Part shown: positions 36,485-45,902 of the stretch, piece by piece
Numbering within the stretch: position 1 is the first letter of the stretch
Layout: each line of letters begins with the position of its first letter
Source of the DNA: Burkholderiales bacterium
Lineage (GTDB): Bacteria > Pseudomonadota > Gammaproteobacteria > Burkholderiales > SG8-39
Reading direction: 5' to 3'
Assembly (NCBI GenBank): GCA_044870335.1
Contig: JBIOYV010000111.1
Coordinates: 61,943 to 125,942 of the forward strand
DNA: 64,000 bases
Translations under genes and position numbers: made by a program
Notes under the pieces: model-generated
What the model saw: the letters and a program-made list of their open reading frames with translations, nothing else
What the model was told of the DNA's origin: nothing
Database searches by the model: none

Positions 36485-38195
36485 CCTCTTCGCCTGGCTG
36501 CTCGCCGCCGTGCTTGCGGTCGCCAGCGCAGGGTGCACCACCGTAGTCGGCCAGTTTTTCCTGCCGAAAGAGGGCGTGCGGGAAGCGGGCTACGCGGTCG
36601 AGCGGCAAAAGGGCGTCGCCTTCGATACTTCCGACGGCATCGCGCTGGTGGCCGATCTTTATCGACCCAGAACGCAGGAGAAGAGGCCGACGATCCTGGT
36701 GCGAATTCCATTTTCCAGCACCTTCAAGAACCGCCTCGCGGTCGATACCGTCGGCGAGTTCTGGGCGAGTCGCGGCTACAACGTGGTGATCCAGGGAACT
36801 CGCGGGCGCTACAAATCGGGCGGTGAGTTCTATCCGCTGCTCTACGAAGAGGCTGACGGGCGCGAAACGCTGCAATGGCTCGCGCGCCAGCCCTGGTTCG
36901 ACGGCCGCCTGGGGATGTGGGGCGGCTCGGCGTTCGGTCATACCCAGTGGGTGCTGGCGGGTGACGAGGCCCCCGGACCGGGCGTGCTCATGATCCAGAT
37001 CGCCAGCACCAGCTTTCGCGAGATGTTCCATCCGGGAGGCGCGTTCTCGCTCGAGTCCGCGCTGTTCTGGGCGGCGCGCAGCCACGGACGCGAAGACCGC
37101 GATCCCTCGTTCGACGCGCTCGAGCGCGGGTTCGCCGGGTTTCCATTGATCGAGGCCGACGACCGCGCCGTCGGCGACGTCGCCTTCTTCAACGACTGGG
37201 CGCGTCACGTCGACGCGGACGATTACTGGCGTCGCATCGACGGGACCGATCGTGCCGGCACGCTCAGGGCGCCAGTGCTCCTCATGGCGGGCTGGTATGA
37301 CCCGTTCCTGCCGACGCAGCTGCGCGACTTCGAAACCGTGCGGCGCGAAGCGGCGCCCGGCGTCGCGGCGGGCAGCCGGCTCATCGTCGGACCCTGGACG
37401 CACGCCGACCCGGTGCGGTTTCCCGACGGCTCGACCGCGGGCGACTACCGGCCAGCGAGCCTCGCGCCGAGCCTGCCGTGGTTCGACCATCATCTGCTCG
37501 GCAAGCCGCTCGCCCCATCGCTTGCCGCGCCGGTGCGCATCTACGTCATGGGCGAAAACCAATGGCGCGACGAGCGGGAATGGCCGCTCGCCCGCGCACG
37601 TTACGTACCCTATTACCTGGGAAGGGGTGGCCGCCTAGCGCAAAGCCCGCCGGGCGATGAGCCACCGGACTCCTACGTATGCGATCCGCGGCAGCCGGTA
37701 CCCTCGCGCGGCGGCGCCATGCTCGGTCCGCGCGCCGGCATAGCATTGCAAAACGACATCGAGGCACGCACCGACGTGCTCCTCTACACCACCGCGGCCC
37801 TCGAGCAGGACACCGAAGTCACTGGGCCGATCCGGGCGCTGCTCTACGTGTCCACCACGGCGCCAAATACGGATTTCACCGTCAAGCTGGTGGACGTCCA
37901 CCCGGACGGCAAGGCGTACAACATCTCCGACGGCATCCTGCGGCGCGCGTATCCCGAGCAGGCGCGCGAAACCCCGCAGGAAATCGTCGTCGAGCTCTGG
38001 CCGACCAGCATGCTCTTCCGGCGCGGCCATCGCGTGCGCGTCGAGGTCTCGAGCAGCAACTATCCGCGCTACGACCGCAATCCGAACACCGGCCGCGACA
38101 TCGCCACCGAAACCGAGCCGCGGCCGGCGACGCAGACCGTGTTCCACAGCGCCGTGGCGCCGTCGCGCATCATCCTGCCGCTGGTCCCGCGCTAG
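36471..38195 (+). CDS. CocE/NonD-family (S15 X-Pro dipeptidyl-peptidase-like) hydrolase, lipoprotein
   Basis: Lipobox LAVASAGC. GxSxG-like motif GGSAFG. C-terminal beta-sandwich. GTG start at 36471 assumed; an ATG at 36411 is an alternative. Confidence 0.75.
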   Translation: MSPRSLFAWLLAAVLAVASAGCTTVVGQFFLPKEGVREAGYAVERQKGVAFDTSDGIALVADLYRPRTQEKRPTILVRIPFSSTFKNRLAVDTVGEFWASRGYNVVIQGTRGRYKSGGEFYPLLYEEADGRETLQWLARQPWFDGRLGMWGGSAFGHTQWVLAGDEAPGPGVLMIQIASTSFREMFHPGGAFSLESALFWAARSHGREDRDPSFDALERGFAGFPLIEADDRAVGDVAFFNDWARHVDADDYWRRIDGTDRAGTLRAPVLLMAGWYDPFLPTQLRDFETVRREAAPGVAAGSRLIVGPWTHADPVRFPDGSTAGDYRPASLAPSLPWFDHHLLGKPLAPSLAAPVRIYVMGENQWRDEREWPLARARYVPYYLGRGGRLAQSPPGDEPPDSYVCDPRQPVPSRGGAMLGPRAGIALQNDIEARTDVLLYTTAALEQDTEVTGPIRALLYVSTTAPNTDFTVKLVDVHPDGKAYNISDGILRRAYPEQARETPQEIVVELWPTSMLFRRGHRVRVEVSSSNYPRYDRNPNTGRDIATETEPRPATQTVFHSAVAPSRIILPLVPR

Positions 38196-38207
38196 CCACT
38201 CCAAGCT

Positions 38208-39311
38208 CTACCGCAGCGCGCTGTAGACCTCGGCGAGCGAGCGCTTCCCGCCTTGTCCGGCGGCAAGTGCGAGCGACGCCCGGGCCAGCTTCTCCGCATC
38301 GCCCGCCGCGATCTCGGCCGCCAGGGCCTGCGCTTCCGCGCTGGTCAGCGAGCGCACATGGATTCGGGCGAAGCAGCGTCCCGGGCGGATCAGCGCGTCG
38401 TCCAGGTCGCCGACGTTCGGCAGGTTGGTCGAGAAGATGATCTTGCGTCCCTGCGCGCGCACCACGCCGTCGGCGATGGCGAGAAAGCGGTGCAGATGCT
38501 GGTTGCCGTCGGCGCGCGGCTTGAGCAGGTGGTCCGCGTCCTCGACGATGAACGCTTCATCCTCGCCGGTGATGAATTTGACGAAGATCTGGTCGCTGGA
38601 GAGTGCCCTCATGTCGCCGGTGTACATGGCGCGTGCTTCCTCGCCCTTGCGCCGCGACATCTCGCCGAGGATGGCGCGGATCAGCCGCGTCTTGCCGGTG
38701 CCCGGCGGCCCCTGCAGCACGAGCACGGTTTCCGGCGCGGCCAGGTAGCGCGCGATAAAGGGTTTCACGCCTTCCCTGATCTCGGGATAGGCGCGGTCGC
38801 GCAGGTCGTCGTCGGCCATCTCCTCGATCGACGCGCTCTCCAGGTCGTTACCCGAGAGAAAGTGCCAGTCGATCGAGAACATCGGCTCGGTGATGCGGGT
38901 CGAGCCGGCCTTGTCGAGCAGCCGCTGCTTTGCGGCCTCGGCGCGCGCCAGGTCGGCCGCCCAGATGTAGAAGGAGCAGGAGCAGTAATCGGCCTTGCGG
39001 CTGCCGTACGCGGCGACGAACAGCCCATCGCCGTCGAGGAGCATCGCCTCGGCGTGGATGCGCTCTGCGCGCCAAGCCGGGTCGAGCGCGATCGCGTCGA
39101 GCAGCACCTCGAGCTCGACGCGCGCTGCGAAGCGCAGCACACGGTAAGCGGGGTAGCGCGAGACGCCGTCCTCGAGGGCACGGGCCATGCGGTTCTCCAG
39201 CACCAGGGCGCCCAGGTAGTTGACGTGCCGCGTCAGCCCGCTGAACTGCTTGTATTGGTCGTTTTTCATGTCTCTCACAAAAAAACGGCCGACCCAAGGG
39301 CCAGCCGTCAA
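38208..39311 (-). CDS. AAA+ family ATPase with a ~190-aa N-terminal domain of unknown function
   Basis: Walker A GPPGTGKT, Walker B FIVEDAD, sensor/arginine finger region. TTG start overlaps the SPFH gene stop (TTGA). Confidence 0.8.
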   Translation of the reverse strand: MTAGPWVGRFFVRDMKNDQYKQFSGLTRHVNYLGALVLENRMARALEDGVSRYPAYRVLRFAARVELEVLLDAIALDPAWRAERIHAEAMLLDGDGLFVAAYGSRKADYCSCSFYIWAADLARAEAAKQRLLDKAGSTRITEPMFSIDWHFLSGNDLESASIEEMADDDLRDRAYPEIREGVKPFIARYLAAPETVLVLQGPPGTGKTRLIRAILGEMSRRKGEEARAMYTGDMRALSSDQIFVKFITGEDEAFIVEDADHLLKPRADGNQHLHRFLAIADGVVRAQGRKIIFSTNLPNVGDLDDALIRPGRCFARIHVRSLTSAEAQALAAEIAAGDAEKLARASLALAAGQGGKRSLAEVYSALR

Positions 39312-40453
39312 CGGATCTTCACCAGATCCTTCAGCACCGCGTCGAGGCCACCGAACACCGAGATCTTGTCGATCTTCTCGGTAACCTTCTCCAGAGTCTC
39401 CAGCTCCTTCAGCCGCAGCGCGGTCGGGTTGTCTTCCATCACCCGGGCGGTGTTCAGCAGCGAACGGGTAGCCGAGGTTTCCTCACGGCGGCGGATCACG
39501 TTCGCCAGCGCGGCCTTCTCGGCCTCCACCACCTTCGCCAGGATCACCTTCATCTCACCCGGCAGGATGATGTCCTTCACGCCGACCGAGTCGACTTCCA
39601 GGCCGAAGCCCTCCACGCGGCGCTTGATGTGCTCCGCCACCACCTGGTCGATCAGCCCCTTGTTCTCGAGCAGCTCGTCCAGGGTACGGGTACCCACCGC
39701 GGCACGCAGGCCGAACTGGAGCTCCTTGTACAGGTAGTCCGCCGGCTTCGCCTGCTTGCCGAACGCCACCAGCACGTCGGTCACACGGTAGCCCGCGTTC
39801 AGGTTCACGCGCAGCGGGACCTTGTCCTTGGTCAGGATTTCCTGACCCGCCACTTCCAGAACCTGCAGGCGCAGATCCACGAACTCGACGCGCATGTCGC
39901 GGCCGAAGCGGTAGAAGGCGCGCAGGCCGGCATCCAACACGTATGCCAGCTTGCCGTCGACGTATACGACGCCCACGTTGAACTGCGGCACCTGCACGCC
40001 GTACACGTCTTCAGCGCCGGGCACCTTCGCCTTGAAGCCGTTCGCAGTCAGAGTGATCAGCTGCGGTACCAGCTTCGGGTCGACGGTGAAGTCGGTCGCG
40101 ATGTCGACGCGCTCGAACTCCTGTTCGAGGTAGCCCTTGAAGTACAGGCGGCGGGTGTTCGGCGCCAGCATCTCGGCGAGCACGCCGTTCTCGACGCGCA
40201 GGCCGACCTCGGCCGTGCCGAGCTCGACCACGTGGAACTCGCGCGCCACGGCTTCCGGCTCCGCCTTCACCAGGAACTCGGCCAGGCGGTGCTCGAAGCG
40301 CGGCTGTGCCAGACCGAACTTCTCGACGGTCAGGCGGTGCAGCGGGTCGAAGCGAACGTGCTCGCCCGGACGCAGGATCTCGACGAAGTCGCCGCGCTCG
40401 AACAGCAGCGCGCGCTCATCCTTCTTCACATGAAACTTCCGAAACAGCATCAT
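39308..40453 (-). CDS. SPFH/band-7 (slipin-type) protein
   Basis: SPFH domain followed by a C-terminal coiled coil. RBS AAGGAG lies 7 nt before ATGATG at 40453. Confidence 0.85.
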   Translation of the reverse strand: MMLFRKFHVKKDERALLFERGDFVEILRPGEHVRFDPLHRLTVEKFGLAQPRFEHRLAEFLVKAEPEAVAREFHVVELGTAEVGLRVENGVLAEMLAPNTRRLYFKGYLEQEFERVDIATDFTVDPKLVPQLITLTANGFKAKVPGAEDVYGVQVPQFNVGVVYVDGKLAYVLDAGLRAFYRFGRDMRVEFVDLRLQVLEVAGQEILTKDKVPLRVNLNAGYRVTDVLVAFGKQAKPADYLYKELQFGLRAAVGTRTLDELLENKGLIDQVVAEHIKRRVEGFGLEVDSVGVKDIILPGEMKVILAKVVEAEKAALANVIRRREETSATRSLLNTARVMEDNPTALRLKELETLEKVTEKIDKISVFGGLDAVLKDLVKIR

Positions 40454-40714
40454 TTGTTTTCTCCTTTGTTTCTCCCTTAAAGAAACCACTTCTTAAAAAA
40501 ATCGGGAATCCGGCCTCCCGGGCGCCCGACGGGCTCCGCCGCGCACGCGGGGGAAAGCAGCGGTGCACCTCACAGAGATCCTTCCTGTGAATGCAGCGTT
40601 GCCTCGCCCGCAGGCGCCGCACGGCGCACTCGGCCTGGAACCCGGTGCGTGAGCGCGATGCTCTGCGCACACGCTGAAGCCGGCCCCGTACTGCGTTACT
40701 GCAGCCAACGTTAC

Positions 40715-40788
40715 AAGTTGGAGCGGGATTCGAACCCGCGACAGATCGGTTTTCAGCCGATTGCTCTACCCGTCTGAGCTATCCAGAT
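40715..40788 (-). tRNA. tRNA-Phe(GAA)-like. Two acceptor-stem mismatches, no encoded CCA. Possibly a pseudogene.
   Basis: D-arm GCTCAGACGGGTAGAGC, anticodon arm ATCGG-CTGAAAA-CCGAT and T-arm GCGGGTTCGAATCCCGC read by hand. Its first nucleotide is shared with the CCA end of the adjacent tRNA-Met. Confidence 0.5.
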
Positions 40789-40862
40789 GGTGGCGAGAGT
40801 GAGAGTCGAACTCACGACCTCCGCCTTATGAGAGCGTTGCTCTACCGCTGAGCTATCTCGCC
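40788..40862 (-). tRNA. tRNA-Met(CAT)
   Basis: Acceptor GGCGAGA/TCTCGCC, anticodon loop CTCATAA, T-loop TTCGACT, A73 then CCA. Confidence 0.7.
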
Positions 40863-41311
40863 CAACATTCGTCGCTCCCACGCCGCGGTACACGCCACGC
40901 CGATGTTCCAGGCAGGCGCGCCAGGGAGGACTCACGAGCCTCGCCCGCTGCGAACGCGTTCACGAAGAATTCTTGCTACGGATGTGGCAAAGCTTTGGGG
41001 GGACCTGCCGGAGTCGCACCGGCACTTGCGGATTCACATTCCGCTGTGCTGCTGTTACACCAAGATCTCCATCGAATCGGTGATGGCGCGCCTGACAGGA
41101 CTCGAACCTGAACCGACGGATTACCCGGGCATTACTCCGGGCCGCGCTGCGCTTGGAAACGCGCTTCCCTTCAGAACCGTCATCGGACCCTGTCGGTGCA
41201 TCCGCAACCATGCCCGCTCACGCGTTTGCAAATCCGCCTCCGCTCTTAACGGCACCCTTCGTCACTCGTTTTGGGTGTGCACTTTCCCTGTTGTGCGACA
41301 GGCGCTTGCTC

Positions 41312-41387
41312 TGGCTGTCCAGGCAGGCTTCGAACCTGCAGCCCGCGCCTTAACAGGGCGCCGCTCTACCGGTTGAGCTACTGGACA
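41312..41387 (-). tRNA. tRNA-Asn(GTT)
   Basis: Full cloverleaf: TGTCCAG-TA-GCTC-AACCGGTA-GAGC-G-GCGCC-CTGTTAA-GGCGC-GGGCT-GCAGG-TTCGAAG-CCTGC-CTGGACA-G-CCA (76 nt). Confidence 0.85.
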
Positions 41388-41394
41388 AAAGGAC

Positions 41395-41470
41395 TGGTAC
41401 CGGCCCGTGGTCTCGAACCACGCACCTCCCGCTTATCGAGCGGGTGCTCTTCCGGATGAGCTAGACCAGT
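41395..41470 (-). tRNA. tRNA-Ile(GAT)-like (unusual C33)
   Basis: Acceptor ACTGGTC/GGCCGGT with two G-U pairs. Anticodon loop TCGATAA. T-arm CGTGG-TTCGAGA-CCACG. CCA encoded. Confidence 0.6.
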
Positions 41471-41473
41471 GTC

Positions 41474-41548
41474 TGGCGGGGGCGCCTGGATTCGAACCAG
41501 GGACATCCGGCGTCAGAGGCCGGCGTTCTGCCGCTGAACTACGCCCCG
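41474..41548 (-). tRNA. tRNA-Gln(CTG)
   Basis: Anticodon arm CCGGC-CTCTGAC-GCCGG. T-arm CCTGG-TTCGAAT-CCAGG. C1-C72 mismatch. CCA encoded. Confidence 0.7.
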
Positions 41549-41550
41549 GC

Positions 41551-41626
41551 TGGCGCTTCCCCTCCGTTTCGAGCGGAGCTCTCCGGATCTTCAAACCGGC
41601 GCTGTCACCAGACCAGCTAGAGAAGC
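41551..41626 (-). tRNA. tRNA-Phe(GAA)-like with a non-canonical T-loop (CTCGAAA)
   Basis: Acceptor GCTTCTC/GGGAAGC. Anticodon loop TTGAAGA with a 31-39 mismatch. T-arm CTCCG-CTCGAAA-CGGAG (C54). Confidence 0.55.
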
Positions 41627-41632
41627 GTGAAT

Positions 41633-41708
41633 TGGTACTCGGTGATGGGGTCGAGCCATCGTCCTCCCGCTTGTGAGGTGGGCGCTCTTCGCACTGAGCT
41701 AACCGAGC
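41633..41708 (-). tRNA. tRNA-Val(CAC)-like with a non-canonical T-loop (CTCGACC)
   Basis: Acceptor GCTCGGT/ACCGAGT. Anticodon loop CTCACAA. T-arm GATGG-CTCGACC-CCATC. Confidence 0.6.
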
Positions 41709-41711
41709 ATT

Positions 41712-41787
41712 TGGTCGGCGCGGCAGGAGTTGAACCTGCAACCTTCTGATTAAGAGTCAGCTACTCTCGCCATTGAGTTACGCGCCG
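41712..41787 (-). tRNA. tRNA-Lys(CTT)
   Basis: Acceptor CGGCGCG/CGCGCCG. Anticodon loop CTCTTAA. T-arm GCAGG-TTCAACT-CCTGC. Confidence 0.7.
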
Positions 41788-41799
41788 TGTAGATAGTTT

Positions 41800-41875
41800 T
41801 GGCGGCACCGGCGGGACTTGAACCCGCGACCTCCTGCTCGACAAGCAGGCACTCTGTCTTCTGAGTTACGGCGCC
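41800..41875 (-). tRNA. tRNA-Asp(GTC)
   Basis: Acceptor GGCGCCG/CGGTGCC. Anticodon arm CCTGC-TTGTCGA-GCAGG. T-arm GCGGG-TTCAAGT-CCCGC. Confidence 0.8.
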
Positions 41876-41881
41876 ATTGAG

Positions 41882-41959
41882 TGGTACCTCCGGAAGGATT
41901 CGAACCCTCGGCCTCGCGGTTCGTAGCCGCGCGCTCTGGTTCCGCTGAGCTACGGAGGT
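41882..41959 (-). tRNA. tRNA-Arg(ACG)
   Basis: Acceptor ACCTCCG/CGGAGGT. Anticodon arm CGCGG-CTACGAA-CCGCG. T-arm GAGGG-TTCGAAT-CCTTC. Confidence 0.8.
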
Positions 41960-41964
41960 GTTGA

Positions 41965-42051
41965 TGGTTGAGCGGGAAGGATTTGAACCTTCACGGAACT
42001 GGCCGACCTCGGGGTTACGGCGCGGTGCCCTGCCTCATGGGCGTCCGCTCG
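41965..42051 (-). tRNA. type-II (long variable arm) tRNA-like gene, 87 nt. Anticodon arm not resolvable. Possibly a Tyr/Leu/Ser-type pseudogene.
   Basis: T-arm GAAGG-TTCAAAT-CCTTC resembles the E. coli tRNA-Tyr T-arm. Acceptor CGAGCGG/CCGCTCA with a C1-A72 mismatch. CCA encoded. No complementary anticodon stem found. Confidence 0.45.
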
Positions 42052-42057
42052 GTTGTA

Positions 42058-42134
42058 TGGTCTCGCCGGCAGGATTCGAACCTGCGGTCTCCTCGTCCCG
42101 AACGAGGCGCGCTGGCCGGCTGCGCTACAGCGAG
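42058..42134 (-). tRNA. tRNA-Pro(CGG)
   Basis: Anticodon arm CCTCG-TTCGGGA-CGAGG is identical to the E. coli tRNA-Pro(CGG) loop. T-arm GCAGG-TTCGAAT-CCTGC. Acceptor CTCGCTG/CGGCGAG. Confidence 0.85.
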
Positions 42135-42147
42135 GGAAGAAAATTGC

Positions 42148-42222
42148 TGGCATTCCCGGCCGGATTCGAACCGGCATCCACGGCTTGAAGGGCCGCGGTC
42201 CTGACCGTTAGACGACGGGAAC
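42148..42222 (-). tRNA. tRNA-Glu(TTC)
   Basis: GTTCCCG-TC-GTCTAACGGTCAGGAC...CCTTCAA...GCCGG-TTCGAAT-CCGGC-CGGGAAT-G-CCA. Closely parallels E. coli tRNA-Glu. Confidence 0.85.
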
Positions 42223-42361
42223 GTCGTAAATCGCGGGCGCAAGCCCGCCACCCCGCCGCGCGGCCCATGGGCCAACCGAGGGCACGTTGCGCGCGGCGGG
42301 GTCGTTTGCCACATCCAAGTTGTAAAAGAGCGGCGCGAGCTTTCGCTCACGCGAAAAAATC

Positions 42362-42438
42362 TGGTGCCCCACCCGGGATTCGAACCCGGAGCAGCGTGTT
42401 TCTGAGACACGCGCGTATGCCGATTCCGCCAGCGGGGC
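42362..42438 (-). tRNA. tRNA-Leu(CAG)-like lacking the long variable arm (77 nt). Atypical, possibly a pseudogene or non-canonical tRNA.
   Basis: Leu-type D-arm TG-GCG-GAATCGGCATA-CGC. Anticodon arm CGTGT-CTCAGAA-ACACG. Only a 5-nt variable region. T-arm CCGGG-TTCGAAT-CCCGG. Acceptor GCCCCGC/GTGGGGC. Confidence 0.6.
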
Positions 42439-42496
42439 GTTCGGGTCGCGGCACTCGGAAAATGCCGCGACCGGAATGCCGGTCCGCGAAGGCAAC

Positions 42497-42540
42497 AAAA
42501 AGCCCGGGGACCTTGCGGCGCACCCGGGCTCGGACGGACG
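42497..42540 (-). terminator. rho-independent terminator (minus-strand sense), copy 2 of a repeated ~45-bp element
   Basis: In minus-strand sense: hairpin gcccgggtgcgccgcaaggtccccgggc followed by tttttgt. Shares the consensus aCAAAAAGCCCGG...CCGGGCTyGGAyGG with the element at 42713. Confidence 0.6.
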
Positions 42541-42712
42541 ACCAGCGATTACTTGATCGCTAGAAGGCCTCCTCCGCTCGGTGCGCGCGCGTATCCGCCT
42601 CGCATGGCGCGATGGGCTTTCGCTGTTGCTCGAGTCGCAAATGCCGGTTCATCGAAATTCGATCCATATCCGTTCTCCTAACGCCGTGCTTGCAGCGGCG
42701 TTGACGCCCCAG

Positions 42713-42756
42713 AAACAAAAAGCCCGGAGCGCTCGCGCGGTCCGGGCTTCGGATGG
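42713..42756 (-). terminator. rho-independent terminator (minus-strand sense), copy 1 of the repeated element
   Basis: In minus-strand sense: hairpin gcccggaccgcgcgagcgctccgggc followed by tttttgtttc. Confidence 0.6.
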
Positions 42757-42817
42757 GCGCAAAGCGCTTACGCGATCTTCGTCTCCAGATCGGCGTCTCT
42801 ATCAAGTCGCTTCGGTT

Positions 42818-42848
42818 GCGTCGTGTGCATGTGCAAGGGCGCGCATTG
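42818..42848 (-). promoter_or_regulatory. strong sigma70-like promoter (TTGACT-N16-TACAAT) pointing toward lower coordinates. Embedded in a palindrome tcttgac-N9-gtcaaga.
   Basis: Minus-strand sense reads ctcTTGACTttggatctgtcaagacTACAATgcg. The same region carries TTGACA hexamers in plus-strand sense upstream of the 43009 gene. Confidence 0.55.
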
Positions 42849-43008
42849 TAGTCTTGACAGATCCAAAGTCAAGAGAATTTCTTGACACCGCCGCAGCCGC
42901 GACGAGTTCTAAGCCGAGGGTGCGCAAAAGGCAGTACGACCTGCGCCTGGAAATAAGTAGGTCCGAGGGATCGCTTTCGAAGGCGCAGAATTTAGACAGA
43001 GTGTTCCC

Positions 43009-44295
43009 ATGCAACCCGACGTCCAAATTCTCATCATCGGCGGCGGCCTCTCGGGCCTCAGCGCGGCGCTGCACCTCGTGCGCGCCGGCGTCGAGGACGT
43101 CTTCGTGCTCGAGGCCGAGCACATTGGCCTGGGCGGAAACACCTACCTGTCCGGCACGCCGGGTCCGGTGTTCCCCGATTACACCAAGATGGTGCTTACG
43201 CCGGACGACCGTGGCTATACCTATCTGTCGCGGCGCTTCAACCGCCAGGTGGCCCTCAACCTGATGCGCGTCAAGCGCCGCGGCGTGGAGCTGCAGCTCG
43301 AGCTCGCGCGGGGCTTCGACCCGCGCCTCGTGCGCCAGTACGGCACGCTCATCGTCGGCGAGCCCGACGACGACAGGAGGTTGCGCGAGGAGCACCGCGT
43401 GATGCGCGACCTCGGCATCGACGCCGACATCGAGCGCTACGACGCCGGCCTGATTGCCGCGCTCTACGGGACCGCCACGGGAAAGTACGTCCGGGGCCTG
43501 TTCGTCACCGGTGACGCGATCGTCGACTCGACGCGCTACATCCAGGCGATCGCGCGCTCGCTCGGCGAGACGCGTTACCGGGAGCAATCGCGCGTGGTCG
43601 CGTTGCGCGAGGAGGGCGACGTGGTGCGCGCCGAGCTCGAGGGCGGCGAGTCGGTGAGCGCCGCGCACGTGGTCATCGCGACCAACGGGTTCATCATCGA
43701 TCACGATGCGAATCTGAACAGCAGAATGCGCTCCTACTGGACCTTTCTCGTCGCCTTCGACGATCCGGGCGAGAACACGCCGAACGCCTATTACTTCGAC
43801 CCGCGTGCGCATTACTGGGCGCGCCAGGACGGCAAGCTCATCGTCGGCGGCGAGGACACGCCGGTGATCGACGATAACTTCCATGCGCCTCCGAACGCCG
43901 AGCGCTCCGCCGGGCGGCTCGTGGGCTGGTGCGCCGAGACGTTCCCGCGCCTCGCCGGGCGCACGGCGCTCGCGCTGCACTACAGCGTGTTCGGCGAAAC
44001 GCGCGACAACCTGCCGATTCTCGGCCGCTTTTCGCCGCAGAGCCGTGTCTGGTACGTCGTGGGCGACAACGGCGACGGCCAGAGCACGTTGAGCTGCATC
44101 GCCTATCTGCTTCCGCGCGCCATGGGCTTTGCGCAGCCGAGCGCCGAGGAAGAAGCGCTCATCGCCTTCCTCTCGCCCGGACGGGAGAGCCTCAAGGAGC
44201 CGCCCGCCAAGCCGGCGCCCGCCGCGCCGACCGCGGCCGGCGCATTGATCGAGACCAAGATCGACACCGAGATCGAGACCGAGATCGCGACCTAG
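43009..44295 (+). CDS. FAD-dependent oxidoreductase (DAO/glycine-oxidase-like family)
   Basis: N-terminal dinucleotide-binding motif ILIIGGGLSGLSAA. C-terminus carries IETKIDTEIETEI repeats. Confidence 0.8.
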   Translation: MQPDVQILIIGGGLSGLSAALHLVRAGVEDVFVLEAEHIGLGGNTYLSGTPGPVFPDYTKMVLTPDDRGYTYLSRRFNRQVALNLMRVKRRGVELQLELARGFDPRLVRQYGTLIVGEPDDDRRLREEHRVMRDLGIDADIERYDAGLIAALYGTATGKYVRGLFVTGDAIVDSTRYIQAIARSLGETRYREQSRVVALREEGDVVRAELEGGESVSAAHVVIATNGFIIDHDANLNSRMRSYWTFLVAFDDPGENTPNAYYFDPRAHYWARQDGKLIVGGEDTPVIDDNFHAPPNAERSAGRLVGWCAETFPRLAGRTALALHYSVFGETRDNLPILGRFSPQSRVWYVVGDNGDGQSTLSCIAYLLPRAMGFAQPSAEEEALIAFLSPGRESLKEPPAKPAPAAPTAAGALIETKIDTEIETEIAT

Positions 44296-44408
44296 CGGAG
44301 CGCCTCAGCGATACCGCCGAAGCCGAAGACCGCGGCGATGATTGCGACGATAAAAAACCCGATTGCCCAGCTCAGCATAAAGACCTCGACTAGGAGGCGC
44401 CGGCCTCT

Positions 44409-45902
44409 TCAGGATCCCGGCTGCGCCCAATTGCGCGCCCGGCTCACCGCTTCGCGCCAGCGGCTCATCAGAGCCTGCCTCTTCGAGGGCTCCATCGCGG
44501 GCTCGAAGCGGCGCGCGGCTTTCCATTGCTGCGCGAGCTCTGCGCGCGACTTCCAGAGAGCGACGGTGAGGCCGGCGAGATAGGCCGCGCCGAGCGCGGT
44601 GGTCTCGAGGACGCGCGGTCGGACAACGGGAACACCGAGGAGGTCGGCCTGGAATTGCATCAGCAGGTCGTTGGCGGAAGCCCCGCCGTCGACGCGCAGC
44701 TCGGCGAGCTTCTCGCCCGAGTCCTTCTGCATCGCCTCGAGCACTTCTGCGCTCTGGAAGGCGATCGATTCGAGCGCGGCGCGCGCTATGTGGGCTCTTG
44801 TCGTTCCTCTCGTCAATCCAAGGATGGTGCCGCGCGCGTTCGGATCCCAGTAGGGCGCGCCCAGTCCGGCGAAGGCGGGGACCACGAAGACGTCGCCGGA
44901 ATCGAGGACCTCGGAGGCAAGCCGTTCCACTTCGCTTGAACTGCTGAAAAAACCAAGCTGGTCGCGCAGCCACTGCACGACCGCGCCGGCGATGAACACG
45001 CTGCCTTCGAGCGCGTATTCCTTCGCGCCCGTCTGCGCGCAGGCGGTAGCGACGAGGCCGTTTGCCGACTGCACCACCTTGTCGCCGGTGTGGAGCAGCA
45101 TGAAACAGCCCGTGCCGTAGGTGTTCTTCGCCATGCCGGGCGCGTGGCAGGCCTGGCCGAAGAGCGCCGCCTGCTGGTCGCCGGCGACGCCGGCGATGAG
45201 GAGCGGCTCGCCGAGGACGCCCGCGGGCACCATGCCGAAGGCATGCGCCGAGGGATGGACCTCCGGCAGGATCGCCCGCGGCACGCGCAGCAGCCGCAGC
45301 AGCTCGTCGTCCCACTCGTTGGTATGAATGTTGAAAAGCAGCGTGCGCGAGGCGTTGGAGACGTCGGTGACGTGGGTGCGGTTGCCGGTGAGCTGCCAGA
45401 CGAGCCAGGTGTCGACCGTGCCGAACGCGAGCTCGCCGCGCGTCGCGCGCTCGCGCGCGCCGGGAATCTCGTCGAGCAGCCACGCGAGCTTGGTGCCGCT
45501 GAAGTAGGGATCGATCACGAGCCCGGTGCGCTCGCGGATCAGGCTCTCCGCGCCGACCTCGCGCAGATCCTTGCAGAGCCCGGCGGTGCGCCGGTCCTGC
45601 CACACGATGGCGTTGTGGACCGGCTCGCCGGTCTGCCGGTCCCAGACGATGGTGGTTTCGCGCTGGTTCGTGATGCCGATCGCCATCACGTCCTTGGCGG
45701 AGACGTTGGACTTGCGCAGCGCTTCGCGCGCCACGTCGCGCTGCGTGGCGAAGATCTCGCGCGGGTCGTGTTCCACCCAGCCCGCCTGCGGAAAGATCTG
45801 GCGGAACTCGCGCTGCCCGAGCGCCACCGGGCCGCCGGCCTCGTCGAAGAGGATCGCCCGCGAGCTCGTGGTGCCCTGATCGAGGGCCAGAACGTACTTC
45901 AC
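44409..45902 (-). CDS. glpK: glycerol kinase
   Basis: [20 protein letters not shown]... is highly GlpK-like along the full 497 aa. Confidence 0.92.

What the first reader, a model, noticed from the sequence alone, without database searches (positions are those of the whole stretch)
38208..40453. Translationally coupled SPFH(slipin)-AAA+ ATPase operon next to the tRNA array
The SPFH/band-7 gene stop overlaps the TTG start of an AAA+ ATPase (TTGA). The ATPase carries an uncharacterised ~190-aa N-terminal domain. SPFH proteins are classically paired with NfeD-type partners. A dedicated AAA+ partner suggests an uncharacterised membrane-microdomain remodelling or stress/defence module. Its position adjacent to an accessory-looking tRNA array fits an acquired island.
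Basis: partly seen in the sequence, partly recalled or inferred. Interest (0 to 1): 0.6.

Follow-up and report, generated by a model that had tools for sequence, protein, structure and literature searches.

The report
Attenuator-led tRNA, RNA, SPFH, AAA operon
The SPFH and AAA+ ATPase genes are a real, widely conserved pair, but they are separated by a conserved terminator hairpin rather than translationally coupled, and they form the tail of a previously undescribed operon that also holds a leader with two small ORFs, the tRNA array, a tRNA-like element and a new structured RNA.

Summary
Both genes exist on the minus strand. They are a stomatin-type SPFH (40453..39308, 381 aa) and a classical-clade AAA ATPase. 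The TTGA overlap is in the sequence, but it comes from extending the ORF upstream. Homologues start at the ATG at 39269 (353 aa). All 34 distinct SPFH-AAA spacers are 37-73 nt long and hold a GC hairpin plus a U-run.

The pair is co-conserved. Every SPFH gene examined has this ATPase next to it, including relatives at 43-49% identity. The ATPase also occurs without SPFH.

The tRNA array is not a chance neighbour. The recurring order is: conserved promoter; two small leader ORFs, each stopping about 22-30 nt before a terminator hairpin; tRNAs; a tRNA-like element with a variable anticodon; a roughly 212-nt structured RNA (20 covarying pairs, no Rfam match); optional LuxR-type HTH; SPFH; hairpin; ATPase.

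Neither protein has a transmembrane segment. There is no match to a defence system, plasmid or close viral relative. The ATPase N-domain belongs to a small family with a KA1-like fold.

Best reading: one operon controlled by ribosome-dependent attenuation, with graded expression, in which an SPFH oligomer works with the AAA ring. Biochemical function is inferred only.

The parts
42845..42872 (-). Sigma-70-like promoter (TTGACT, 16 nt, TACAAT) at the head of the module
   Evidence: It is the only minus-strand promoter-like site in 37.5-43.5 kb. The TTGAC(T/A) and (T)A(C/G)AAT hexamers line up in 13 of the 16 aligned leaders.
42768..42830 (-). Leader ORF 1 (20 codons, MHTTQPKRLDRDADLETKIA)
   Evidence: In 15 of 22 distinct leaders, an ATG-started ORF ends in the motif ET(K/R/S/E/P)(I/T/A)A, with its stop 21-23 nt before terminator 1. 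Translation is inferred, not shown.
42713..42746 (-). Leader terminator 1 (CCCGGACCGCGCGAGCGCTCCGGG followed by a U-run)
   Evidence: Conserved hairpin plus T-run across loci.
42560..42667 (-). Leader ORF 2 (35 codons, MDRISMNRHLRLEQQRKPIAPCEADTRAHRAEEAF), preceded by the ribosome-binding site AGGAGAA
   Evidence: In 19 of 22 distinct leaders an SD-preceded ATG opens an ORF of 21-41 codons that ends at the same TAG, 27-31 nt before terminator 2; in 18 of them it is the only SD-preceded ATG in any frame (L005 has one extra 7-codon ORF). Its 3' part can pair with the 5' arm and loop of the terminator.
42494..42529 (-). Leader terminator 2 (GCCCGGGTGCGCCGCAAGGTCCCCGGGC followed by a U-run), nearly invariant in sequence
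   Evidence: Found at the head of about 30 loci covering every architecture, including loci with no tRNAs and no SPFH.
40789..42438 (-). Array of 13 tRNA genes (Leu-Glu-Pro-Arg-Asp-Lys-Val-Phe-Gln-Ile-Asn-His-Met), all encoding CCA, plus a degenerate tRNA at 41968-42051
   Evidence: ARAGORN and Rfam detect them. The same order occurs in L002, L114, L075 and others. Anticodon stems show compensatory changes while the anticodons stay fixed.
40715..40788 (-). tRNA-like element. It has no CCA and a weak 4-bp acceptor stem; ARAGORN calls it tRNA-Phe(GAA).
   Evidence: The body is nearly identical across loci, but the anticodon triplet differs (GAA, TTA, TCT, GAT, TTT, AAG, TGT, GTT, TCG). L061 has an insertion in the anticodon loop. 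The element is also present in deep relatives with anticodons CGT, GAT and AGG.
40496..40707 (-). Conserved structured non-coding RNA of about 212 nt, ending in a hairpin plus U-run just before the SPFH ribosome-binding site
   Evidence: Alignment A3 has 13 sequences. RNAalifold predicts 59 pairs. 96% of cells are paired, and 20 pairs change on both sides, against 8.9 +/- 1.9 in shuffles (0/500) and 3-5 when the partners are slid. There is no Rfam match. nhmmer finds it upstream of SPFH in every locus where that region is visible.
39308..40453 (-). SPFH / stomatin-type protein, 381 aa, with no transmembrane segment and a novel N-terminal half of about 165 aa
   Evidence: Pfam Band_7 domain. 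The profile matches PH stomatin 3bk6 (E 3e-24) and human stomatin over residues 180-363. Homologues are 83-96% identical and 379-385 aa long. No hydrophobic segment.
39277..39309 (-). Hairpin between the two genes (11 bp, 7 G-C pairs) plus T7, an intrinsic-terminator-like element
   Evidence: A hairpin plus U-run is conserved in 34 of 34 distinct spacers, with varying stem sequences.
38208..39269 (-). AAA ATPase, 353 aa, starting at the ATG at 39269. Motifs: Walker A GPPGTGKT, Walker B VEDAD, and RPGR arginines.
38736..39269 (-). Family-specific N-terminal domain of the ATPase (residues 1 to about 178)

Best explanation
The two genes are the distal part of one long operon that recurs in soil Burkholderiales-like bacteria. 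Its core also recurs in more distant Proteobacteria.

Proposed transcription and regulation:
- Transcription starts at a conserved sigma-70-type promoter.
- It must then pass two successive leader units. Each is a small ORF whose stop codon sits about 22-30 nt before a terminator hairpin.
- By analogy with trp-type and antibiotic-responsive leaders, this is ribosome-dependent attenuation. A ribosome that promptly reaches the stop lets the terminator form. A slowed or absent ribosome lets the 3' part of the ORF pair with the 5' arm of the terminator, and transcription continues.
- The read-through transcript yields, in order: functional accessory tRNAs for the host's preferred codons; a tRNA-like element that probably acts as a processing signal; a stable structured RNA of about 212 nt; the SPFH mRNA; and, after a further terminator-like hairpin, the ATPase mRNA. 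Expression therefore falls stepwise along the operon.

Proposed protein function:
- The SPFH protein is a soluble stomatin-type oligomer, made in excess.
- It scaffolds or gates a ring of the AAA ATPase, as HflK/C does for FtsH.
- The ATPase uses its family-specific N-domain to select a substrate that is still unknown.

Status of each step:
- Shown here: the anatomy, the conservation and co-occurrence of all parts, RNA covariation, the real start codons, and the absence of membrane anchors.
- Inferred: co-transcription, attenuation, induction under translational stress, and physical SPFH-AAA association.
For: Start codons and spacer.

Co-conservation of the pair:
- SPFH-centred look-ups all show the ATPase downstream.
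- ATPase-centred census.
- Relatives at 42-56% identity keep Band_7 followed by AAA in 3 of 4 loci.

Linkage to tRNAs:
- tRNAs lie upstream in 12 of 13 loci with a complete SPFH and a visible upstream region, plus L114 and L115-118.
- In SPFH-less loci a tRNA ends 12-76 nt before the ATPase ATG, leaving no room for a separate promoter.
- In L003 and L076 the order is permuted (AAA, tRNAs, RNA, SPFH) but all parts stay together on one strand.

Single promoter: only one promoter-like site on this strand in 6 kb, and it is conserved.

Leader. The nearly invariant terminator 2 heads every architecture.

Structured RNA.

tRNA function: compensatory stem changes, fixed anticodons and encoded CCA.

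Precedents: the Anabaena tRNA array is silent and is induced when translation is impaired (PMC8421152, PMC10272220). HflK/C-FtsH is an SPFH-AAA assembly (PMC13220708).
Against: - There are no expression data. The three or four internal terminators could fully insulate the parts.
- The ATPase occurs without SPFH in more than half of the informative loci, so SPFH is not obligatory for it.
- Pairing of the antiterminator cannot be tested by covariation because both strands are nearly invariant. For several loci the minimum-energy fold keeps the terminator even without a ribosome.
- The leader peptides have no runs of a sensor codon, and their content of array-decoded amino acids is not significantly enriched.
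- In deep relatives the SPFH-AAA hairpin lacks a clear U-run.
- The U-run after the structured RNA is degraded in L001, L044 and L105.
- The SPFH structure model was too poor to test oligomer or cage formation.
Confidence: 0.5

Rival explanations
1. The module serves conflict or counter-defence. The array supplies spare, sequence-divergent tRNAs that survive tRNA-cleaving toxins or phage-triggered anticodon nucleases. The SPFH-AAA pair is an abortive-infection or toxin-handling effector switched on by the same translation-stall signal.
For: - Accessory tRNA arrays are proposed as counter-defence in phages, mycobacterial plasmids and megaplasmids (PMC12803027; bioRxiv 10.1101/2025.09.30.679422).
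- The array tRNAs are divergent (Rfam scores 46-69 bits, and one is not detected at all).
- tRNA-Lys and tRNA-His are the members retained longest next to the ATPase.
- Jumbo phages encode the nearest AAA homologues: phrog_14322 at E 8.6e-39, and 35-40% identity in tblastn.
- The genomic context varies between lineages.
Against: - PADLOC has no SPFH hit and only Walker-A-level hits for the ATPase.
- No known defence genes are adjacent in the window or in most loci.
- No close relatives in viral contigs or plasmids.
- The phage homologues examined are not next to tRNAs or SPFH.
- Codon usage is that of the host.
Confidence: 0.2
2. One reading: a translationally coupled SPFH-AAA pair that remodels membrane microdomains, sitting in a recently acquired island beside an unrelated accessory tRNA array.
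For: - The TTGA overlap exists in the sequence.
- SPFH proteins are usually membrane scaffolds.
- The KA1 fold, which the ATPase N-domain resembles, binds acidic lipids in some kinases (my own knowledge; fold match).
Against: - The real start is 38 nt downstream, past a conserved terminator hairpin.
- No transmembrane or hydrophobic hairpin in either protein.
- The tRNA array, tRNA-like element, structured RNA and leader are co-conserved with the pair.
- GC3 equals that of the neighbouring genes.
Confidence: 0.05
3. The parts are physically linked but functionally independent. The leader and tRNA array form a self-contained accessory tRNA operon. The roughly 212-nt RNA is only a 5' UTR or riboswitch of the SPFH gene. 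The ATPase is simply the next gene, at a locus that tolerates insertions.
For: - Terminator-like hairpins separate every part.
- The contents between the leader and the ATPase vary widely.
- The RNA always sits directly 5' of SPFH, or of HTH-SPFH, like a cis-regulatory leader.
Against: - The same leader directly precedes the ATPase when nothing else is present (L058, L102).
- Gaps of 12-76 nt between tRNA and ATPase leave no room for a promoter.
- Permuted loci keep all parts together on one strand (L003, L076).
- The tRNA-like element, non-coding stretch, SPFH, hairpin and AAA persist together in relatives at 43-49% identity.
Confidence: 0.15

Closest known systems
HflK/C-FtsH (and prohibitin with the m-AAA protease): an SPFH cage around a classical-clade AAA ring
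   Same: A stomatin/HflK-superfamily SPFH protein is partnered with a classical-clade AAA ATPase. The AAA core of the window protein matches FtsH, Afg2 and Cdc48. The likely excess of SPFH over AAA fits a large cage around a small ring.
   Different: - Here the two genes are adjacent and form a dedicated pair.
- The ATPase has no protease domain and no membrane span.
- The SPFH has no membrane anchor.
- The ATPase has a different, family-specific N-domain.
- Physical association has not been tested.
Stomatin-NfeD operons (P. horikoshii PH1511/PH1510, QmcA-YbbJ)
   Same: The C-terminal half of the SPFH is closest to PH stomatin and human stomatin. NCBI names homologues 'slipin family protein'.
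   Different: There is no NfeD gene in any locus. The N-terminal membrane hairpin is replaced by a soluble region of about 165 aa with no detectable relatives. The partner is an AAA ATPase.
Bcs1, the mitochondrial heptameric AAA translocase
Long accessory tRNA arrays (L-arrays), such as the Anabaena trn operon repressed by TrcR
   Same: A dense, same-strand array of supernumerary tRNAs with encoded CCA, apparently under tight control and plausibly induced when translation is impaired (PMC8421152, PMC10272220).
   Different: - The array is shorter (10-16 genes, below the 20-gene threshold used in PMC4758250).
- Control appears to be by leader ORFs and terminators rather than by a repressor.
- The array is fused to a structured RNA and two protein genes. 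Neither survey reports such partners.
Leader-peptide transcription attenuators (trp, his, pheST; antibiotic-responsive leaders of resistance genes)
   Same: A small SD-preceded ORF with its stop a fixed short distance before an intrinsic terminator. A segment of the ORF is complementary to the 5' arm of the terminator.
   Different: There are two units in tandem. There are no runs of a regulatory codon. The genes controlled are tRNAs, a non-coding RNA and an SPFH-AAA pair rather than biosynthetic or resistance genes. Function has not been tested.
tRNA-mRNA co-transcription units (E. coli thrU-tyrU-glyT-thrT-tufB) and tRNA-like processing signals (MALAT1 mascRNA)
   Same: tRNAs lie upstream of protein-coding genes in one unit. 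A tRNA-like element whose anticodon is free to vary fits a pure RNase P/Z processing signal (my own knowledge; weak Rfam hits to mascRNA and YrlA, the latter overlapping this element).
   Different: None of these precedents includes an SPFH, an AAA ATPase or a structured RNA of this kind.

Membership tests
SPFH / Band 7 superfamily, stomatin (slipin) type | Band_7 domain above the curated threshold | tested here: met
   PF01145 scores 94.1 bits against a cut-off of 23.6, residues 166-337. The profile matches PH stomatin 3bk6 at E 3.2e-24 and human stomatin at E about 2e-21.
SPFH / Band 7 superfamily, stomatin (slipin) type | N-terminal membrane anchor (transmembrane helix or hydrophobic hairpin) | tested here: not met
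   The highest Kyte-Doolittle 19-residue window is 1.08. The N-terminal 165 aa are hydrophilic.
SPFH / Band 7 superfamily, stomatin (slipin) type | NfeD-type partner gene in the operon | tested here: not met
   The gene tables of L001, L002, L005, L113-L118 and L120-L122 list no NfeD gene.
Classical AAA ATPases (PF00004) | Walker A, Walker B, sensor-1 Asn, and second region of homology with arginine fingers | tested here: met
   PF00004 scores 38.9 bits against a cut-off of 21.2. GPPGTGK, EDAD, TN and R-P-G-R are invariant or nearly invariant in A1 and A5. Profile hits to Afg2, VAT, Cdc48 and i-AAA.
Bcs1 family | Bcs1-specific (seal-forming) domain between the membrane anchor and the AAA module | tested here: inconclusive
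Bcs1 family | N-terminal transmembrane helix; heptameric ring | tested here: not met
   No hydrophobic segment. Ring stoichiometry cannot be tested with these tools.
HflK/C-FtsH-type SPFH-AAA assembly | AAA partner carries a protease domain and both partners are membrane-anchored | tested here: not met
   The ATPase ends about 50 residues after the AAA core. All NCBIfam FtsH scores are far below cut-off (30.7 against 600). No transmembrane segments.
HflK/C-FtsH-type SPFH-AAA assembly | Physical enclosure or binding of the AAA ring by the SPFH oligomer | not testable with these tools
   The SPFH monomer model was poor (pLDDT 45). No complex prediction was available.
Translationally coupled gene pair | The functional start codon of the downstream gene overlaps or abuts the upstream stop | tested here: not met
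   Homologues start at the ATG 38 nt downstream. The spacer is 37-73 nt in all loci and contains a terminator-like hairpin.
Known anti-phage defence systems (PADLOC-DB 2.0) | Full-length match of the components to a system's models | tested here: not met
   SPFH has no hits. The best ATPase hits (mad8 at 1.8e-06, MkoA at 2e-06) cover only the P-loop region or part of the model.
tRNA array units (definition of Tran et al. 2016) | At least 20 tRNA genes at 2 or more per kb | tested here: not met
   14 genes in 1.72 kb. The density criterion is met, but the number is below threshold (definition in PMC4758250).
Leader-peptide transcription attenuator | SD-preceded small ORF ending just before an intrinsic terminator | tested here: met
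   19 of 22 leaders for ORF 2 and 15 of 22 for the ET.IA-type ORF 1. Hairpins plus U-runs are conserved.
Leader-peptide transcription attenuator | Mutually exclusive antiterminator; runs of sensor codons | tested here: inconclusive
   The 3' part of ORF 2 is complementary to the 5' arm and loop of the terminator, and masking a ribosome at the stop restores the terminator in the window. Both strands are nearly invariant, so no covariation test is possible. There are no codon runs.
Any described RNA family (Rfam 15) | Covariance-model match for the roughly 212-nt RNA, the tRNA-like element or the leader | tested here: not met
   An E-value search of 38000-43200 returned only tRNAs and sub-threshold noise. 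YrlA scored 28 bits against a gathering score of 69, over the tRNA-like element.

The most novel reading that the evidence does not exclude
The structured RNA is not a cis-regulator but a partner. The soluble stomatin-type SPFH would assemble into a closed cytoplasmic cage that binds or encloses the roughly 212-nt RNA (and perhaps the tRNA-like element or tRNAs), and the AAA ring would load, remodel or empty it. That would make it a bacterial ribonucleoprotein compartment, made only when translation stalls, and reminiscent of eukaryotic vaults, whose major protein has an SPFH-like shoulder domain and which carry small RNAs. The only evidence for this is the strict co-occurrence of the RNA with SPFH, the absence of membrane anchors, and the permuted loci that keep RNA and SPFH together.
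Probability: 0.1. Interest if true: 0.9.

Novelty: new variant of a known kind. Interest (0 to 1): 0.65.

Why it matters
- It defines a dedicated, operon-encoded SPFH-AAA pair without membrane anchors or a protease. This gives a simple bacterial system for asking what SPFH oligomers do for AAA machines.
- It ties an accessory tRNA array to specific protein and RNA partners and to a leader that looks like a sensor of ribosome progress. That makes the debated question of what cryptic tRNA arrays are for directly testable.
- It adds three apparently undescribed RNA elements: a tandem leader, a tRNA-like element with a free anticodon, and a roughly 212-nt structured RNA with strong covariation.
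- It is also a caution for annotation. Gene callers extend the ATPase ORF through a terminator hairpin and so create false coupling.

Tried and rejected
- **Genome-contig scan.** The full ATPase alignment was swamped by the Walker A pattern and gave one real relative (L006).
- **Covariance model of the RNA.** I used nhmmer instead.
- **AF2 model of the SPFH.** Unusable at pLDDT 45, because the homologues are 83-96% identical. No fold search was run on it.
- **Leader peptide enriched in amino acids decoded by the array.** Significant only for the first half of the window's peptide and not across loci. Rejected.
- **Cis T-box-like pairing between the variable anticodon of the tRNA-like element and a specifier in the downstream RNA.** No column covaries. 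Rejected.
- **Phage or plasmid origin.** No N-domain relatives in viral contigs and no plasmid hits. Jumbo-phage homologues share only the AAA part, and the two inspected are not next to tRNAs or SPFH.
- **Literature searches.** Searches for SPFH, AAA and tRNA array together, for bacterial Bcs1-like proteins, and for SPFH in defence found nothing describing this module.
Full report
**1. The observation**

On the minus strand there are two long ORFs, 40489..39308 and 39311..38208. Pfam finds a Band_7/SPFH domain in the first (94 bits, residues 166-337). In the second it finds a PF00004 AAA domain (residues 198-320), preceded by about 180 residues with no match. NCBIfam gives nothing above cut-off.

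The junction reads ...aag atc cgt TGA cggctggcccttgggtcggccg ttttttt gtgagagac ATG aaa aac.... The TTGA overlap is therefore literally present. However, it is followed by an 11-bp G+C-rich hairpin, seven T's, a GAGAGA ribosome-binding site and an ATG.

The SPFH gene starts at the ATG at 40453, behind an AAGGAG site.

**2. The real start of the ATPase and the claim of coupling**

- 1960 homologues were found. Most of the best 120 are 349-355 aa long and align from MKNDQ... Only a few gene calls extend upstream, and those extra residues translate the hairpin.
- In 80 metagenome loci plus five long contigs, the distance from the SPFH stop to the ATPase ATG is 37-73 nt. There is never an overlap.
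- All 34 distinct spacers fold into a hairpin of 9-14 bp followed by 5-9 U's. Stem sequences differ between loci, so it is the structure that is conserved.

The genes are therefore not translationally coupled. An intrinsic-terminator-like element separates them. Only 10-25 nt remain after it, so the ATPase can only be expressed by read-through, or from a promoter inside the SPFH gene.

**3. Co-conservation of the pair**

- From the SPFH side, every look-up found the ATPase immediately downstream. These were P0179, P0178 and four places for P0187.
- From the ATPase side, 61 distinct loci have at least 200 nt visible upstream. Of these, 26 have SPFH directly upstream, 13 a small LuxR/GerE-type HTH gene, 5 a tRNA, 4 only the leader terminator, and 13 something else.
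- A deeper clade is 42-56% identical to the window's ATPase and includes Steroidobacteraceae MAGs. It keeps Band_7 (380-383 aa) followed by the ATPase in 3 of 4 loci.
- SPFH is the more conserved partner (83-96% identity, against 74-87% for the ATPase).

SPFH is, however, dispensable for the ATPase.

**4. What the proteins are**

*SPFH.* The C-terminal half (residues 180-363) is stomatin-like. PH stomatin 3bk6 matches at E 3e-24, human stomatin at about 2e-21, and QmcA and HflK only weakly. The first 165 residues match nothing. The AF2 model was poor (pLDDT 45), because the alignment is shallow.

*ATPase.* It has GPPGTGKT, a VEDAD Walker B motif and RPGR arginines, all invariant. It belongs to the classical clade with Afg2, VAT, Cdc48 and FtsH. 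The AF2 model has mean pLDDT 79.6.

- Foldseek put Bcs1 first. But its TM-scores equal those of AAA-only chains.

I therefore do not file the protein as a Bcs1 homologue.

*N-domain family.* It is very small: 214 cluster representatives out of 1.84 billion, always at the N-terminus of proteins of about 350-390 aa.

*Other tests.* Neither protein has a hydrophobic segment. PADLOC gives no meaningful hit. PHROGs and tblastn show that jumbo phages (relatives of phiKZ gp208, and phage ME3) share the AAA part at 35-40% identity. The two loci inspected have no tRNAs or SPFH nearby. No plasmid or close viral relatives were found.

**5. The tRNA array belongs to the unit**

The window has 14 ARAGORN calls on the same strand, directly upstream.

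- The same series, Leu-Glu-Pro-Arg-Asp-Lys-Val-Phe-Gln-Ile-Asn-His-Met, precedes SPFH-AAA in L002, L005, L044, L065, L075, L077, L079, L096, L105, L110, L114 and L115-118, with losses and gains.
- Among loci with a complete SPFH and at least 300 nt of upstream sequence, 12 of 13 carry tRNAs. The exception is the L001/L113 lineage.
- In SPFH-less loci, one to six tRNAs (most persistently Lys and His) end 12-76 nt before the ATPase ATG, or sit before the HTH gene.
- In L003 and L076 the order is ATPase, three tRNAs, RNA, SPFH, all on one strand.

The tRNAs look functional. Across loci their anticodon stems change by compensatory substitutions, while anticodons and CCA ends stay fixed. The anticodons read the host's preferred G/C-ending codons.

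**6. Further conserved non-coding parts**

(a) *tRNA-like element.* The last 'tRNA' (40788..40715) has no CCA and a weak acceptor stem. Its body is almost identical in all loci, but its anticodon triplet differs nearly everywhere, and L061 has an insertion there. The deep clade has the same kind of element with anticodons CGT, GAT and AGG. An anticodon that is free to vary fits a processing signal rather than a decoder. This is inference.

(b) *Structured RNA.* Between this element and the SPFH ribosome-binding site lies a conserved RNA of about 212 nt (40707..40496).

- 13 sequences give 59 predicted pairs, and 96% of cells are paired.
- 20 pairs change on both sides, against 8.9 +/- 1.9 in shuffles (0 of 500 reach the observed value) and 3-5 in slid controls.
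- Rfam has no match.
- nhmmer finds it upstream of SPFH, or of HTH-SPFH, in every locus where that region is visible, including the permuted loci. It is absent from the tRNA-HTH-ATPase loci; one SPFH-less locus (L082) keeps only a 69-nt fragment.
- In the deep clade a conserved non-coding stretch of 310-340 nt occupies the same position.

(c) *Leader.* Upstream of the first tRNA there is a conserved promoter (TTGACT, 16 nt, TACAAT). It is followed by two units of the same design.

- Leader ORF 1 (42830..42768) ends in an ET(K/R/S/E/P)(I/T/A)A-type motif in 15 of 22 leaders. Its stop lies 21-23 nt before terminator 1.
- Leader ORF 2 (42667..42560) is present in 19 of 22 leaders; in 18 of these it is the only SD-preceded ATG in any frame (L005 has one extra 7-codon ORF). 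It always ends at a TAG 27-31 nt before terminator 2.
- Terminator 2 is nearly invariant over 33 nt. It heads every architecture, including leader-ATPase alone (L058, L102), leader-HTH-ATPase (L036-L041, L054), and leader followed by the tRNA-like element, RNA, HTH, SPFH and ATPase (L001/L113).
- The 3' part of ORF 2 is complementary to the 5' arm and loop of terminator 2. In the window, the unconstrained fold uses that pairing, and masking a ribosome at the stop restores the terminator.

**7. Mechanism proposed**

This is one operon under tandem ribosome-dependent attenuation. It would be read through when leader translation is slow or absent. Internal hairpins then step expression down from tRNAs to RNA to SPFH to ATPase. 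The SPFH oligomer is proposed to work with the AAA ring as HflK/C does with FtsH.

Precedents:
- The Anabaena tRNA array is silent and is induced when translation is impaired (PMC8421152, PMC10272220).
- HflK/C-FtsH is linked to recovery from aminoglycosides (PMC13220708, PMC10434171).

Shown here: anatomy, conservation, covariation, start sites and the lack of membrane anchors. Inferred: co-transcription, the attenuation logic, stress induction and protein-protein association. The substrate of the ATPase is unknown.

**8. Rival explanations**

- *Conflict or counter-defence.* Spare tRNAs against tRNases plus an effector pair. This remains open at about 0.2. In its favour: the literature on accessory tRNAs, the phage AAA homologues and the variable genomic context. 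Against it: no defence-model hits and no defence neighbours.
- *Independent neighbours.* This is unlikely, given the shared leader, the very short tRNA-ATPase gaps, the permuted but intact loci, and persistence in distant relatives.

**9. Novelty**

SPFH-AAA partnerships, accessory tRNA arrays and leader-peptide attenuators are each known kinds. I found no description of this combination. That covers the anchor-less stomatin-type SPFH with a dedicated non-protease AAA partner, the tRNA-like element with a free anticodon, and the structured RNA.

I rate it a new variant of known kinds, with three apparently new RNA elements. My literature and database coverage is limited, and the taxon-resolved genome census failed.

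Noticed in passing
window 42362-42438 (-); also L002, L005, L044, L075, L077, L082, L090, L096, L105, L114, L115: The tRNA-Leu(CAG) is only 77-78 nt long. It keeps a Leu-type D-arm and A73, but a 5-nt variable loop replaces the long variable arm that bacterial tRNA-Leu normally has. All 11 distinct copies share this, and their anticodon stems show compensatory changes.
   Followed up: partly
window 41551-41626 (-) and 41968-42051 (-): ARAGORN calls the first tRNA-Phe(GAA), but Rfam does not detect it at E <= 0.1; its T-loop and D-loop are atypical. The gap between tRNA-Arg and tRNA-Pro holds an 84-nt sub-threshold tRNA match (28.6 bits against 29). It may be a decayed class II tRNA, since L079 has a Tyr gene there.
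   Followed up: partly
L001 6557-6793, L044, L061, L077, L114, and many SPFH-less loci; L065 1440-1640: A single-domain LuxR/GerE HTH gene of about 70 aa often sits between the RNA or tRNAs and SPFH or the ATPase. It is absent from the window. L065 appears to hold an internally deleted remnant.
   Followed up: partly
L003/L004 6315-7643: A reverse-transcriptase gene (RVT_1, 442 aa) lies directly upstream of the ATPase, in the lineage where the module is permuted (AAA, tRNAs, RNA, SPFH). I did not determine whether it is a group II intron or a retron.
   Followed up: no
L061 363-464: The tRNA-like element carries an insertion of about 30 nt, itself hairpin-forming, in its anticodon loop. It resembles a tRNA intron.
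   Followed up: no
window 42440-42493 (-); also L005, L115-118: An extra hairpin-rich segment of about 55 nt (GGACCGGCATTCCGGTC GCGGCA...GCCGCGACC) lies between leader terminator 2 and tRNA-Leu. It is present only in some lineages.
   Followed up: no
window 43009-45902; L115-L118: The upstream flank (a divergent FAD-dependent oxidoreductase of the DAO family, then glycerol kinase) is syntenic with L115-118. The downstream flank differs: peptidase S15 in the window, FimW_N in those loci. L001, L002, L005 and L114 carry the module in unrelated contexts.
   Followed up: partly
L111 (Acinetobacter phage ME3) and L112 (Pseudomonas phage PA1C, phiKZ gp208-like): Jumbo phages encode uncharacterised proteins of 366-481 aa whose AAA part is 35-40% identical to this ATPase. 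PHROG 14322 matches at E 8.6e-39.
   Followed up: partly
window 42560-42667 (-): Leader ORF 2 uses several codons that are very rare in this genome: CGA four times (3% of Arg codons), TTG (4%), CCA (2%) and ATT (7%). GC3 is 0.63 in its first 19 codons, against about 0.9 in neighbouring genes. This could mean deliberately slow translation, or simply no codon selection.
   Followed up: partly
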